The position numbers were made by a program, and so were the translations under genes. Shown here one piece after another: positions 10,238 through 11,339 of a DNA stretch of 64,000 nucleotides. Below the pieces are notes generated by a model. That model was not told where the DNA came from. It saw only the letters and a program-made list of their open reading frames with translations, and searched no databases. Position 1 is the first letter of the stretch, and every line of letters begins with the position of its first letter. The DNA lies in IMG/VR virus record IMGVR_UViG_3300014205_000001, positions 189,413-253,412 of that record; one strand, written 5' to 3'. Origin of the DNA: a virus (taxonomy: Duplodnaviria > Heunggongvirae > Uroviricota > Caudoviricetes).

Positions 10238-10309
10238 GGGCTAATAAGAGGTTCGAACTCTTCCTAAAACATCCACAATGTTTCGTGCTACCACTACACT
10301 AATCAGCCC
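10238..10309 (-). tRNA. tRNA-His(GUG) with genome-encoded G-1
   Basis: Cloverleaf G-GGCTGAT...AAACA-TT GTG GA-TGTTT...TTCGAAC...ATTAGCC-C; C73 discriminator; CCA not encoded. Confidence 0.92.
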
Positions 10310-10313
10310 ATAT

Positions 10314-10547
10314 TTAATGTATACTTTGTAAACGTTGCAAATTATCTTTACAAGTTTTATTGAAATTTTCTAATACTACATTCATATTAGAAAAAGTTTG
10401 TTCAATTGAATCAAGTGATTTATCAATTGCCGAAAGATATTTATCTGTATCTTTCAAACTTATTTTAATATCTTGTAGTTCATTATAGATAGGTTGTAAT
10501 TTATCATCTAACAATTTACAAATATTAGTATAAGTTAATTCATTCAT
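10314..10547 (-). CDS. Small coiled-coil hypothetical protein between tRNA-Asn and tRNA-His
   Basis: 77-aa heptad-rich ORF that fits the inter-tRNA gap. Confidence 0.5.
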   Translation of the reverse strand: MNELTYTNICKLLDDKLQPIYNELQDIKISLKDTDKYLSAIDKSLDSIEQTFSNMNVVLENFNKTCKDNLQRLQSIH

Positions 10548-10551
10548 TTTG

Positions 10552-10624
10552 CTCCCCAGGTAGGAATTGCACCCACACCCATCCGGTTAACAGCCGGCCG
10601 CTCGCCTACTTGAGCCTCTGAGGA
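10552..10624 (-). tRNA. tRNA-Asn(GUU)
   Basis: TCCTCAG/CTGGGGA acceptor, GCCGG-CT GTT AA-CCGGA anticodon arm, atypical T-loop TGCAATT. Confidence 0.88.
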
Positions 10625-10797
10625 TTGTTACGAATAATGTCTGCTACTATTTCTAATGTAACGTTACTTACATTTTGTCTAGTGATAATGATATAGTTAT
10701 TATCACCGAAGATAGTTAGACACAATCCATTTTTCTTTGTTGTTTGAATCCAAATTTTTCTGAATCCAAATATATTACATAATTCATTTTCCATTTG

Positions 10798-10881
10798 TGT
10801 ACCCGAAGGGATTCGAACCCTTGATGGATGTTAATCTTCAGATTAAAAGTCTGATGCACTCGGCCTCTATGCGACGGATAC
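10798..10881 (-). tRNA. tRNA-Lys(UUU) with a long variable region
   Basis: GTATCCG/CGGGTAC acceptor, TCAGA-CT TTT AA-TCTGA anticodon arm, variable region AGATTAACATCCATC, T-arm AAGGG-TTCGAAT-CCCTT. Confidence 0.85.
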
Positions 10882-10962
10882 GTATTATTGTTATTCCAAT
10901 ACGTCCATCGTAGAGACGTACTGGTTAGCGTTTTATGTATTTCTTTGTTTTCATAATATTTG

Positions 10963-11033
10963 CACATCGTGTAGGAATCGAACCCACGTTAACCGTTTTG
11001 GAGACGGTAGCACTACCATTGTACTAACGATGT
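10963..11033 (-). tRNA. tRNA-Trp(CCA)
   Basis: ACATCGT/ACGATGT acceptor, ACCGT-CT CCA AA-ACGGT anticodon arm, TTCGATT T-loop. Confidence 0.93.
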
Positions 11034-11042
11034 ATGTTGTTG

Positions 11043-11113
11043 TGGAAACGACGAGTATTGGCCTCGCATCTTGCGGTAAAATATCCGCTGCTTTTCAATT
11101 AAGCTACATTCCC
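11043..11113 (-). ncRNA. Degenerate tRNA-like RNA (no assignable anticodon)
   Basis: Acceptor GGGAATG/CGTTTCC and D-arm GCTT/AAGC are intact; anticodon arm GCGG-ATATTTTA-CCGC (8-nt loop); T-loop GCCAATA. Confidence 0.65.
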
Positions 11114-11119
11114 TTGTTG

Positions 11120-11191
11120 TGTGTCTGGACGGTAACGATCCGTCATTTCCGGTTTTTCAGACCGGCACATAAACCTCTTTGTTACAGACAC
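11120..11191 (-). tRNA. tRNA-Phe(GAA)
   Basis: GTGTCTG/CAGACAC acceptor, CCGGT-CT GAA AA-ACCGG anticodon arm, T-arm GACGG-ATCGTTA-CCGTC. Confidence 0.9.
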
Positions 11192-11201
11192 ATATAAAAT
11201 C

Positions 11202-11232
11202 AAAAACCTTCAAGTGGTTAGCTTGAAGGTTT
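11202..11232 (-). terminator. Attenuator terminator upstream of the Phe/Trp/Lys/Asn/His tRNA block
   Basis: Minus-strand AAACCUUCAAG-CUAACCA-CUUGAAGG-UUUUU; the 5' arm is complementary to leader segment AGCUUGAA (plus 11278-11285). Confidence 0.85.
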
Positions 11233-11261
11233 CTTTTTGTTGGGTATTAAAATACTATATC

Positions 11262-11339
11262 TTAATAAACAAAATGATTCAAGCTCCCTGATCTATTAAA
11301 CCAGAAATTATGATTATTATGCTTATTAAACTTTTTCAT
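11262..11339 (-). CDS. Putative attenuator leader peptide MKKFNKHNNHNFWFNRSGSLNHFVY
   Basis: Translated by hand: ATG at 11339, TAA at 11264-11262. Codons 2-15 encode only K, F, N, H and W, the amino acids of the five downstream tRNAs. Confidence 0.85.
   Translation of the reverse strand: MKKFNKHNNHNFWFNRSGSLNHFVY

What the first reader, a model, noticed from the sequence alone, without database searches (positions are those of the whole stretch)
10238..11339. Multi-amino-acid ribosomal attenuator whose leader codons match the phage tRNA operon it precedes (Phe, Trp, Lys, Asn, His)
Seen: an unlisted 25-codon minus-strand ORF (11339-11262) reads MKKFNKHNNHNFWFN-RSGSLNHFVY. All 14 residues after Met are K, F, N, H or W, and all five occur. 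About 30 nt after its stop is an intrinsic terminator (CCUUCAAG-CUAACCA-CUUGAAGG-U5, 11232-11202). Behind that lie exactly five canonical tRNAs: Phe(GAA), Trp(CCA), Lys(UUU), Asn(GUU), His(GUG). The leader segment AGCUUGAA (11285-11278), just 3' of the sensor codons, is a perfect 8-bp complement of the terminator 5' arm and loop edge (UUCAAGCU). Established: this is the geometry of trp/his/thr/ilv/pheST attenuators, where a stalled ribosome frees the antiterminator and a ribosome reaching the stop masks it. Inference: the phage transcribes these replacement tRNAs only when any of the five is uncharged or destroyed, for example by anticodon nucleases (PrrC and PARIS AriB cut tRNA-Lys; colicin E5-type enzymes cut His/Asn/Tyr/Asp). 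K/N/F are common in AT-rich DNA, but if these five residues are roughly a quarter of all residues (my rough estimate), a 14/14 run is very unlikely by chance. I know of no described attenuator that controls tRNA genes.
Basis: partly seen in the sequence, partly recalled or inferred. Interest (0 to 1): 0.96.

Follow-up and report, generated by a model that had tools for sequence, protein, structure and literature searches.

The report
Leader-peptide attenuator gating phage tRNA genes
A 391-kb phage puts a tiny gene written in Lys, Phe, Asn, His and Trp codons, plus a transcription stop signal, directly in front of the tRNA genes for those same amino acids; five other tRNA blocks have matching units, which points to an undescribed feedback switch that makes phage tRNAs when ribosomes run short of them.

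Summary
A 25-codon minus-strand ORF (11339-11262) has 14 consecutive codons after ATG that are all K/F/N/H/W. It is the only 14/14 case among 6,510 ATG frames in the genome. A hairpin with U5 follows 27 nt later, and tRNA-Phe starts 10 nt after that.

Corrections: the leader lies inside a larger tRNA operon, with Gln, an odd tRNA and Met upstream. A sixth, non-canonical tRNA-like gene sits between Phe and Trp.

Decisive evidence: the same design occurs six times in this genome, for Leu/Ile/Thr/Cys/Met, Val/Ala/Gly/Gln, Gln, Phe/Trp/Lys/Asn/His, Tyr and Ser/Arg. Each leader matches its own tRNA block best, and the true pairing is the best of 720 permutations. It recurs in three uncultured jumbo phages and in cultured Salicola phage SCTP-2 and Ralstonia phage RsoM2USA. 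Seventeen rule-selected units in four uncultured genomes gave 0 of 200,000 permutations as good.

Modelled ribosome masks give antiterminator when stalled and terminator at the stop, beyond what 90 ordinary terminators show. The queried unit is structurally the weakest of the six.

I read it as ribosome-mediated attenuation applied to tRNA genes. Eight literature searches found no description. This scan has reported the same class before on other phage DNA. There is no experimental evidence, and the link to anticodon nucleases is untested.

The parts
12000..12027 (-). Promoter-like site (TTCACA-16-TATAAT, overlapping the recurring TTATAATTGTA motif) upstream of tRNA-Gln; the likely start of the transcript that carries the leader
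   Evidence: 11 of 12 match. The motif recurs upstream of leaders U1, U2 and U6. Function is inferred.
11828..11899 (-). tRNA-Gln(UUG), upstream of the attenuator
11752..11822 (-). tRNA-like gene with a 6-nt anticodon loop, upstream of the attenuator
   Evidence: 56.8 bits; identical in L044
11369..11440 (-). tRNA-Met(CAU), ending 28 nt before the leader ATG
11262..11339 (-). Leader ORF, 25 codons plus stop; starts ATGAAA like all six leaders of this genome
   Evidence: 100% identical in the relative L044
11295..11336 (-). Sensor run: 14 consecutive codons (KKFNKHNNHNFWFN), all cognate to the downstream tRNAs
11276..11285 (-). 5' strand of the predicted antiterminator (AGCUUGAA plus 2 nt), pairing with 11229-11220
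11202..11234 (-). Intrinsic terminator: 13-pair stem, 7-nt loop, U5 then GAUUUU
   Evidence: dG -15.4
11120..11191 (-). tRNA-Phe(GAA), 10 nt after the U run, so there is no room for a promoter
11043..11113 (-). Non-canonical tRNA-like gene with an 8-nt anticodon loop (AUAUUUUA); replaced by a different odd tRNA in L044
   Evidence: (36.5 bits)
10963..11033 (-). tRNA-Trp(CCA)
10798..10881 (-). tRNA-Lys(UUU) with a long variable region
10552..10624 (-). tRNA-Asn(GUU), with an unusual T-loop; missed by ARAGORN
   Evidence: 44.1 bits; anticodon loop read
10314..10547 (-). 77-aa ORF inside the controlled array; probably a real gene
   Evidence: 88%-identical homologue in L044
10238..10308 (-). tRNA-His(GUG), the last gene of the array
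10172..10224 (-). Terminator-like hairpin (ACCCCUCA/UGAGGGGU, long loop) plus T run closing the array
   Evidence: Read; not called by the scan because the loop exceeds 8 nt
45462..45515 (+). Sibling leader in the same window (unit U5), with sensor run YYWYYY
45538..45572 (+). Terminator of unit U5; its 5' arm pairs with the stop-codon region of the leader
   Evidence: P stalled 0.91, P at stop 0.08-0.15
45578..45661 (+). tRNA-Tyr(GUA), controlled by unit U5

Best explanation
The element is a ribosome-mediated (leader-peptide) transcription attenuator that controls phage tRNA genes.

Proposed sequence of events:
1. A transcript, probably started upstream of tRNA-Gln, runs through tRNA-Met into a 25-codon leader.
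2. Ribosomes translate the leader while RNA polymerase approaches the hairpin at 11234-11202.
3. If Lys-, Phe-, Asn-, His- and Trp-tRNA are all plentiful, the ribosome reaches the stop codon. It occupies the region that brings the antiterminator strand (11285-11276) to the terminator's 5' arm. The terminator forms and transcription stops 10 nt before tRNA-Phe.
4. If any one of the five is scarce, the ribosome stalls in codons 2-15. The antiterminator pairs with the 5' arm, and polymerase reads on into Phe, the odd tRNA, Trp, Lys, Asn, the 77-aa gene and His.
5. The products relieve the stall, so this is a negative feedback loop on tRNA supply, with the leader acting as an OR gate over five amino acids.

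Shown here: the sequence features, their statistical exceptionality, six-fold recurrence in this genome, and co-variation in other phages. Inferred: leader translation, stalling, and the direction of the switch.
For: Composition:
- Unique 14/14 among 6,510 frames.
- 14 consecutive cognate codons sampling 5 of 5 anticodons, P about 1e-6.

Architecture:
- The hairpin-to-tRNA gap is 10 nt, so Phe to His can only be expressed by read-through.

Internal replication:
- Six units in the genome, each made of an ATGAAA-started leader, a stop codon 17-27 nt before a strong hairpin with a U run, then tRNAs.
- Sensor runs are TLILTLTIICITMLC, VVGQQGAAAV, QWQQQQ, KKFNKHNNHNFWFN, YYWYYY and SSRSASSRRRS.
- They precede Leu/Ile/Thr/Cys/Met, Val/Ala/Gly/Gly(/Gln), Gln/Gln, Phe/Trp/Lys/Asn/His, Tyr, and Ser/Arg/Arg/Arg.
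- Each leader scores best on its own set, and the true pairing is the best of 720 permutations.
- 23 of 24 distinct downstream anticodons are sampled. The Ser/Arg leader uses CGG, AGA, CGC and CGT for three Arg anticodons in a 31% GC genome.

Other phages:
- 11 further rule-selected units in G001, G003 and G005, such as RRPQPQQPRR before Pro/Gln/Arg, LSLSLSLSLSLS before Leu/Ser, and PQPQHQPQ before Pro/His/Gln.
- 17-unit permutation test: observed 45.1, maximum of 200,000 permutations 31.0; relatives alone also 0 of 200,000.
- Cultured Salicola SCTP-2 and Ralstonia RsoM2USA carry matched units.

Structure:
- With ribosome masks at the real positions, P(5' arm paired upstream) is 0.54-0.97 when stalled and 0.08-0.38 at the stop, in all six units.
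- With identical generic masks on all 96 strong terminators, the units exceed the other 90 (p=0.0006 and p=0.0025). Only 6.7% of the others show the switch pattern.

Plausibility:
- The phage uses no Shine-Dalgarno sequences (15 of 374 against 26 of 374 in controls), so the A/U-rich leader start is typical of its genes.
- It encodes three sigma-70 family proteins and has no hit to the RNA polymerase beta-subunit domain. That fits use of host core polymerase, which obeys intrinsic terminators.
- The leader and hairpin are 100% identical in relative L044, whose neighbouring 77-aa gene differs at about 13% of bases.
Against: - There are no transcript, ribosome-profiling or reporter data.
- The queried unit is the structurally weakest of the six. 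Its antiterminator is 8-10 bp (duplex -8.9 kcal/mol). The best fold containing it is 6.7 kcal/mol less stable than the terminator fold.
- Its naked-RNA antiterminator potential ranks 29 of 96. With generic mask positions it shows no switch (0.26 against 0.47).
- A ribosome at the stop codon covers only the 3' end of the antiterminator strand.
- As a group, the six units do not exceed ordinary terminators in naked-RNA potential (p=0.15).
- L044 has no substitutions in the leader or hairpin, so it gives no covariation. The neighbouring tRNAs and spacers are just as conserved, so the conservation is not specific to the leader.
- The leader has no conserved promoter of its own. It would have to be translated from a tRNA precursor, 28 nt after tRNA-Met.
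- The device is not universal. Pro/Glu/Asp and Arg(CCU) in this genome lack it, and I found no unit in G004 or Caulobacter CcrBL9 with my rule.
- Unit U1 has a promoter-like motif between its terminator and first tRNA, which could bypass it.
- Stalling reports decoding capacity in general, so tRNA shortage cannot be separated from amino-acid starvation.
Confidence: 0.8

Rival explanations
1. The leader really does sense decoding of the listed codons, but the output is not the hairpin switch. Stalling might instead change precursor processing or stability (RNase E, RNase P or RNase Z access, or cleavage triggered by stalled ribosomes). It might also alter Rho access, with the hairpin serving as a constitutive partial terminator or a protective 3' end.
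For: The compositional match is very strong. The antiterminator evidence for this unit is modest. The leader sits in a tRNA precursor, 28 nt after tRNA-Met, where processing enzymes act.
Against: Stop-to-hairpin spacing is uniform at 17-27 nt in all six units and 17-36 nt in other phages. Five of six units show a stalled-versus-stop switch well beyond ordinary terminators. In units U5 and U6 the antiterminator strand overlaps the stop codon itself.
Confidence: 0.1
2. This is a chance ORF in an A/T-rich spacer next to an ordinary leaky terminator that merely sets the ratio of upstream to downstream tRNAs. There is no sensing.
For: K, N and F are common in 31% GC DNA. The spacer is low in complexity. 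Internal partial terminators in operons are commonplace. The set of five residues was chosen after the fact.
Against: The ORF is the only 14/14 among 6,510 frames. Six of six units in the genome match their own tRNA block (1 of 720). Seventeen units in four phages gave 0 of 200,000 permutations. GC-rich rare codons are used where the tRNAs call for them.
Confidence: 0.03
3. The small ORFs encode functional micropeptides. Their codon make-up matches the neighbouring tRNAs because they are expressed together, so that the peptide is made only once the phage tRNAs exist. The terminator simply ends the peptide gene.
For: All six leaders start MK and several share an MK(N/T)xVNT-like N-terminus. Leader peptides with functions in trans are known (peTrpL, PMC7298713).
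Against: Peptide sequences are not conserved between units or between phages. Only the rule 'residues equal downstream tRNAs' is kept. There is no room for a promoter between hairpin and tRNA in five of the six units.
Confidence: 0.04

Closest known systems
Leader-peptide (ribosome-mediated) transcription attenuators of amino-acid biosynthetic operons: trpL, hisL, pheL, leuL, and the multivalent thrL (Thr/Ile) and ilvL (Ile/Val/Leu)
   Same: A short ORF with a run of regulatory codons, an intrinsic terminator shortly after its stop codon, and mutually exclusive antiterminator and terminator pairings set by ribosome position. Multivalent sensing has precedent in thr and ilv.
   Different: The controlled genes are tRNA genes rather than enzymes, so the product is the sensed molecule's own scaffold and the loop closes directly. 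Up to five or more amino acids are listed in one leader. The element belongs to a virus and occurs six times per genome, each copy tailored to its block. This copy is internal to a tRNA operon. There is no sequence homology to any known leader.
Leader-peptide attenuators of aminoacyl-tRNA synthetase genes: pheM-pheST of E. coli (my own knowledge) and the His leader upstream of hisS paralogues in bacilli (PMC2965389)
   Same: Leader-peptide control of a translation-apparatus gene in response to the supply of one charged tRNA.
   Different: Those control the charging enzyme for a single amino acid in a cell. Here the tRNA genes themselves are controlled, for sets of amino acids, in a phage.
T-box riboswitches
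   Same: They couple tRNA status to read-through of an intrinsic terminator by an antiterminator-terminator choice.
   Different: A T-box binds uncharged tRNA directly through a specifier codon and discriminator, without a ribosome. Rfam found no T-box here, and the sensor here is a translated ORF.
Known control of tRNA genes (stringent and growth-rate control of tRNA/rRNA promoters by ppGpp/DksA) and the known layout of phage tRNA clusters such as those of T4 and T5, with interspersed small ORFs, promoters and terminators (my own knowledge)
   Same: tRNA output is tuned to translational demand. Small ORFs and terminators among phage tRNA genes have long been seen.
   Different: That regulation acts at initiation and is global, not specific to a tRNA. 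I found no report that the small ORFs list the neighbouring tRNAs or act as attenuators.

Membership tests
Leader-peptide transcription attenuator (trp/his/thr/ilv type) | Short translatable ORF containing a cluster of regulatory codons | tested here: met
   25-codon ORF with 14 consecutive cognate codons. The start context is typical of this phage, which uses no Shine-Dalgarno sequences.
Leader-peptide transcription attenuator (trp/his/thr/ilv type) | Rho-independent terminator between the leader and the regulated genes, with no intervening promoter | tested here: met
   Hairpin dG -15.4 plus U5 at 11234-11202, with tRNA-Phe 10 nt later
Leader-peptide transcription attenuator (trp/his/thr/ilv type) | Alternative antiterminator pairing that excludes the terminator, favoured by a ribosome stalled in the regulatory codons and disfavoured by a ribosome at the stop codon | tested here: inconclusive
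   For this unit, P is 0.61 stalled against 0.29 at the stop with real positions. It fails with generic positions, and the 8-nt complement is reached in 0.9% of shuffles. For the group of six the feature is met: p=0.0006 and p=0.0025 against 90 other terminators. All of this is in silico.
Leader-peptide transcription attenuator (trp/his/thr/ilv type) | Regulatory codons correspond to the product of the regulated genes | tested here: met
   5 of 5 downstream anticodons are sampled. Own-set match is the best of 720 permutations and 0 of 200,000 over 17 units.
Leader-peptide transcription attenuator (trp/his/thr/ilv type) | Leader translation and stall-dependent read-through shown in vivo or in vitro | not testable with these tools
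   No transcriptome or ribosome-profiling data are available, and the phage is uncultured.
Leader-peptide transcription attenuator (trp/his/thr/ilv type) | Conservation of the unit, with compensatory changes, in relatives | tested here: inconclusive
   L044 is 100% identical over the leader and hairpin, so it offers no substitutions to test. More distant phages keep the design but not the sequence.
T-box riboswitch | Conserved T-box sequence and stem I specifier architecture | tested here: not met
   The Rfam scan of 9800-12300 at E<=1 found only tRNAs and weak chance hits.

The most novel reading that the evidence does not exclude
The attenuators may act as sentinels for host tRNA-directed defence. 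When an anticodon nuclease cuts a host tRNA (PrrC or PARIS on tRNA-Lys, retron Ptu-type effectors on tRNA-Tyr, colicin E5-like enzymes on His/Asn/Tyr/Asp), ribosomes stall on the matching leader. The phage then switches on exactly the replacement tRNA block. The neighbouring tRNA-like genes with 6- or 8-nt anticodon loops (Gln-, Asn- and Lys-like) may serve as decoys or resistant variants. If so, this would be a virus-encoded, codon-resolved damage sensor wired to a counter-defence.
Probability: 0.2. Interest if true: 0.97.

Novelty: new variant of a known kind. Interest (0 to 1): 0.9.

Why it matters
Transcription of tRNA genes is thought to be set globally at promoters. A switch that reads out, codon by codon, whether a given set of tRNAs is limiting, and answers by transcribing those tRNA genes, would be a new regulatory principle for the translation apparatus.

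It would also help explain how phages with large tRNA arrays dose them during infection, while host tRNAs decay or are attacked. It reinterprets the many unannotated mini-ORFs and terminators inside phage tRNA clusters.

It offers natural, compact sensors of tRNA availability for synthetic biology. Matched units occur in cultured phages (Salicola SCTP-2, Ralstonia RsoM2USA), and the element is about 140 nt long, so the idea can be tested directly.

Tried and rejected
- **INPHARED DNA search:** blastn of the cluster against phage records matched only tRNA bodies.
- **Exact hairpin search:** an exact search for the hairpin in IMG/VR found nothing.
- **Ligase-anchored relatives:** the two closest (72-74% identity) have no tRNAs beside the ligase gene. 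They have no homologue of the Nei or 77-aa anchors and no DNA match to the leader, so synteny-based comparison failed there.
- **Exact-protein look-up:** two assemblies were 100% identical to the window, so they are the same phage and uninformative.
- **Only intermediate relative (L044-L046):** it has no substitution in the leader or hairpin, so neither synonymous/non-synonymous nor compensatory analysis was possible.
- **First constrained fold:** I mis-placed the pairing partner by 4 nt. It is superseded.
- **Naked-RNA antiterminator potential:** as a group test it was not significant (p=0.15). I replaced it with the masked-ribosome control.
- **TATAAT 18 nt upstream of the leader ATG:** I considered it as a private promoter and rejected it because it is disrupted in L044.
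- **pyrBI-type logic:** a ribosome physically melting the terminator is rejected, because every leader stops 17-27 nt before the hairpin.
- **tRNA-like stretch:** the fold used mis-set coordinates and was uninformative.
- **Not attempted:** complex or structure prediction, since no protein question arose.
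Full report
**What is there**

The window is part of a single 391,061-bp, 31% GC virus record with direct terminal repeats. It has at least 34 tRNA genes in five clusters.

On the minus strand between 11899 and 10238, Rfam and ARAGORN find nine tRNA-type genes:
- Gln(UUG)
- a tRNA-like gene with a 6-nt anticodon loop
- Met(CAU)
- Phe(GAA)
- a tRNA-like gene with an 8-nt anticodon loop
- Trp(CCA)
- Lys(UUU)
- Asn(GUU), called by Rfam only
- His(GUG)

Between Met and Phe lies a 176-nt spacer. It holds the 25-codon ORF 11339-11262 and a 13-pair hairpin with a U5 run at 11234-11202. 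tRNA-Phe begins 10 nt after the U run. That leaves no room for a promoter, so everything from Phe to His must be expressed by reading through the hairpin.

**Is it more than chance?**

Residues 2-15 of the ORF are all K, F, N, H or W. These five residues make up 22.6% of residues in long ORFs and 26.9% in small ORFs. Among 6,510 ATG-started frames of at least 15 codons in the genome, this is the only 14/14, and the next best is 12/14. At codon level the 14 codons are all readable by the five canonical downstream anticodons, and all five are sampled. The binomial P is about 1e-6 against the phage's own codon usage. The 8-nt complement between 11285-11278 and the terminator's 5' arm and loop edge (11227-11220) is reached in 0.9% of shuffles.

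It misses the sixth, non-canonical tRNA-like gene. It misses the interspersed 62-aa and 77-aa ORFs. It also misses that three tRNA-type genes precede the leader.

**The decisive evidence: the design repeats**

I ranked the genome's terminator-like hairpins by how well their 5' arm can pair upstream. The two top sites also sat directly before tRNA genes. Reading those spacers, and then every tRNA upstream region, gave six units of identical build. Each has a leader starting ATGAAA, a stop codon 17-27 nt before a strong hairpin with a U run, and then tRNAs 8-18 nt later (62 nt in one unit).

| Unit | Sensor run | tRNAs behind the terminator |
|---|---|---|
| U1 | TLILTLTIICITMLC | four Leu, Ile(UAU), two Thr, Cys, two Ile(GAU), Met |
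| U2 | VVGQQGAAAV | Val, Ala, Gly, Gly (then Gln, Gln) |
| U3 | QWQQQQ | Gln, Gln |
| U4 (queried) | KKFNKHNNHNFWFN | Phe, odd tRNA, Trp, Lys, Asn, His |
| U5 (window 45462-45515) | YYWYYY | Tyr |
| U6 | SSRSASSRRRS | Ser(UGA), Arg(UCU), Arg(ACG), Arg(UCG) |

In a 6x6 comparison, every leader scores best on its own tRNA set, and the true assignment is the best of all 720 permutations. Each leader ranks between 1st and 32nd of 2,433 small ORFs genome-wide for its own set. Twenty-three of 24 distinct downstream anticodons are sampled by at least one leader codon. The Ser/Arg leader uses CGG, AGA, CGC and CGT, serving all three Arg anticodons, in a 31% GC genome.

**Other phages**

A syntenic relative (L044-L046) carries the queried leader, hairpin and tRNA-Phe without a single difference. 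Its 77-aa gene is only 88% identical in protein. Its odd tRNA between Phe and Trp has been exchanged for a different one. This shows the unit is retained. It gives no covariation, and the neighbouring tRNAs and spacers are equally conserved.

More distant jumbo phages were reached through the RNA-ligase gene. I scanned them with a fixed rule:
- a hairpin of dG <= -12 with a T run, within 100 nt upstream of a tRNA that has at least 90 nt of spacer;
- an ATG ORF of 9-50 codons ending no more than 50 nt before that hairpin.

Eleven more units appeared in G001, G003 and G005, and none in G004. Examples:

| Record | Leader motif | tRNAs behind the terminator |
|---|---|---|
| G005 | RRPQPQQPRR | Pro/Gln/Pro/Gln/Gln/Arg/Pro |
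| G001 | LSLSLSLSLSLS | Leu/Ser/Ser/Ser/Leu/Leu |
| G001 | ADCADE | Asp/Cys/Asp/Glu/Ala/Glu/Glu |
| G003 | PQPQHQPQ | Pro/Pro/Pro/His/Gln/Gln/His/Gln |
| G003 | KKSYSYKTYKK | Tyr/Lys x5/Tyr |
| G001 | HIHKHQIWH | Trp/His/His |

Permuting tRNA sets among all 17 units never reached the observed score (45.1 against a maximum of 31.0 in 200,000 permutations). The same holds for the 11 non-self units alone. Thirteen of the 17 units rank their own set first.

Two cultured phages also carry matched units:
- Salicola phage SCTP-2 has T/S/E-rich, K/F/W-rich and D/H/M-rich leaders before Ser/Glu/Thr, Lys/Phe/Trp and Asp/His/Met.
- Ralstonia phage RsoM2USA has an N/Q/F/R/M-rich leader before Met/Ile/Asn/Asn/Gln/Lys/Arg/Phe.

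**RNA logic**

I folded the nascent transcript up to the terminator loop and masked 30 nt for a ribosome. The probability that the terminator's 5' arm is already paired upstream is 0.54-0.97 with the ribosome stalled in the middle of the sensor run. It is 0.08-0.38 with the ribosome at the stop codon. This holds in all six units.

As a control I applied identical generic masks to all 96 strong hairpin-plus-T-run sites in the genome. The six units exceed the other 90 (p=0.0006 for the stalled state, p=0.0025 for the difference). Only 6.7% of ordinary terminators show the pattern.

Three weaknesses need stating:
- Without masks, the group does not differ from ordinary terminators (p=0.15).
- The queried unit ranks only 29th of 96 in that test. 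It fails the generic-mask test because its antiterminator strand lies further upstream, and it behaves as a switch only with its true codon positions (0.61 against 0.29).
- Its antiterminator fold is 6.7 kcal/mol less stable than the terminator fold. That is the same order as in the trp leader, but it means the switch would have to be kinetic.

**Plausibility of translation and termination**

The phage's genes lack Shine-Dalgarno sequences. SD-like 4-mers occur before 15 of 374 long ORFs, against 26 of 374 in a control window, with G depleted and A enriched upstream. So the A/U-rich leader start is normal for this phage.

The genome encodes three sigma-70 family proteins and gives no hit to the RNA polymerase beta-subunit domain. 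That fits use of host core polymerase, which obeys intrinsic terminators. Very diverged phage polymerases could escape that model.

The TATAAT just upstream of the leader is not conserved in L044. The leader is therefore probably transcribed from the promoter-like site upstream of tRNA-Gln (12027-12000). It would be translated from a transcript that also carries tRNA-Met.

**Interpretation**

The best reading is a trp/his/thr/ilv-type ribosome-mediated attenuator in which the regulated genes are the tRNAs that decode the sensor codons. That makes a direct negative feedback on tRNA supply, with each leader acting as an OR gate over the species in its block.

Rivals, with my estimates:
- same sensor but a different output, such as processing or stability (about 0.1);
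- functional micropeptides (about 0.04);
- chance (about 0.03).

The more economical view is supply-and-demand control of tRNAs for an A/T-rich phage while host tRNAs decline.

**Novelty**

Eight full-text searches found no description of attenuators or leader peptides controlling tRNA genes in cells or phages. I also read two papers. The RsoM2USA genome paper (PMC8504454) has no mention of attenuators, terminators or leaders. The genome-wide premature-terminator survey (PMC2965389) reports a His leader before hisS paralogues but nothing on tRNA genes. The library misses many subscription papers, including the older phage T5 literature, so absence is not proof.

Within this scan, the same class was already reported and followed up on several other phage genomes. 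First readers also flagged the Tyr and Ser/Arg units of this genome. Those notes are not independent evidence. I found units U5 and U6 myself before reading them.

**Verdict**

This is a new variant of a known mechanism, of high interest, and it awaits an experiment.

Noticed in passing
window 11752-11822 (-), 11043-11113 (-); L044:4736-4810: tRNA-like genes with intact cloverleaf arms but 6-nt (AUUUGA, Gln-like) or 8-nt (AUAUUUUA, Lys-like) anticodon loops. The 8-nt one is replaced in relative L044 by another with a 6-nt loop (AUGUUA, Asn-like), while the flanks stay identical. They may be decoys or variants related to anticodon nucleases. Another such gene ('at') lies at genome 25812-25885.
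   Followed up: partly
window 10798-10881 (-): tRNA-Lys(UUU) carries an extra stretch of about 13 nt in the variable region (Rfam alignment). It is conserved in L044 apart from a 1-nt indel.
   Followed up: no
window about 11607-11747 (-): A conserved stretch of about 140 nt between the 6-nt-loop tRNA and tRNA-Met. It has a canonical T-arm (GGGUUCGAAUCCC) and pairing acceptor-like ends, but a long internal insertion. Neither Rfam nor ARAGORN calls it. L044 has an extra 85 nt just upstream of it.
   Followed up: no
window 10200-12060 vs L044:3640-5760 (alignment A1): Mosaic divergence. The tRNAs, leader, hairpin and most spacers are 99-100% identical between the two phages. The embedded 77-aa gene differs at about 13% of bases, and one tRNA-like gene is swapped outright. 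This suggests cassette exchange or very strong constraint on the array.
   Followed up: partly
genome 26904-26965 (-), outside the window; also window about 12000-12027 and about 10145-10160: The promoter-like motif TTATAATTGTA recurs 60-70 nt upstream of leaders U1, U2 and U6, upstream of tRNA-Gln, and after tRNA-His. In unit U1 a further copy sits between the terminator and the first tRNA-Leu, which could bypass that attenuator.
   Followed up: no
window 45462-45515 (+) and genome 45058-45135 (-): The sensor runs of the Tyr-only and Gln-only leaders each contain one non-cognate Trp codon in the middle (YYWYYY, QWQQQQ). Trp also follows the run in U2. The phage has a single tRNA-Trp, in the queried block. 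The reason is unknown; cross-talk or a structural need for GG are possibilities.
   Followed up: no
L076:1203-1228, L077:1363-1389, L077:6386-6411 (Salicola phage SCTP-2): Three attenuator units of SCTP-2 use almost the same terminator hairpin (AAAACCCUUCC-loop-GGAAGGGUUUU) with different leaders, as if one terminator module had been copied and the leader re-written for each tRNA block.
   Followed up: no
window 42664-42855 (+); genome 307507-307716 (+), 11779-11979 (-): Three sigma-70 family (region 2) genes are present in the phage, one of them inside this window. There is no hit to the RNA polymerase beta-subunit domain.
   Followed up: partly
L059, L060 (G001), L054 (G003), L056 (G004), L050 (G005), L072 (RsoM2USA): ARAGORN calls a tRNA with anticodon CUA (an amber-suppressor type) in each of these jumbo phages. 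In RsoM2USA a strong hairpin with a T run precedes it, without a leader ORF.
   Followed up: no
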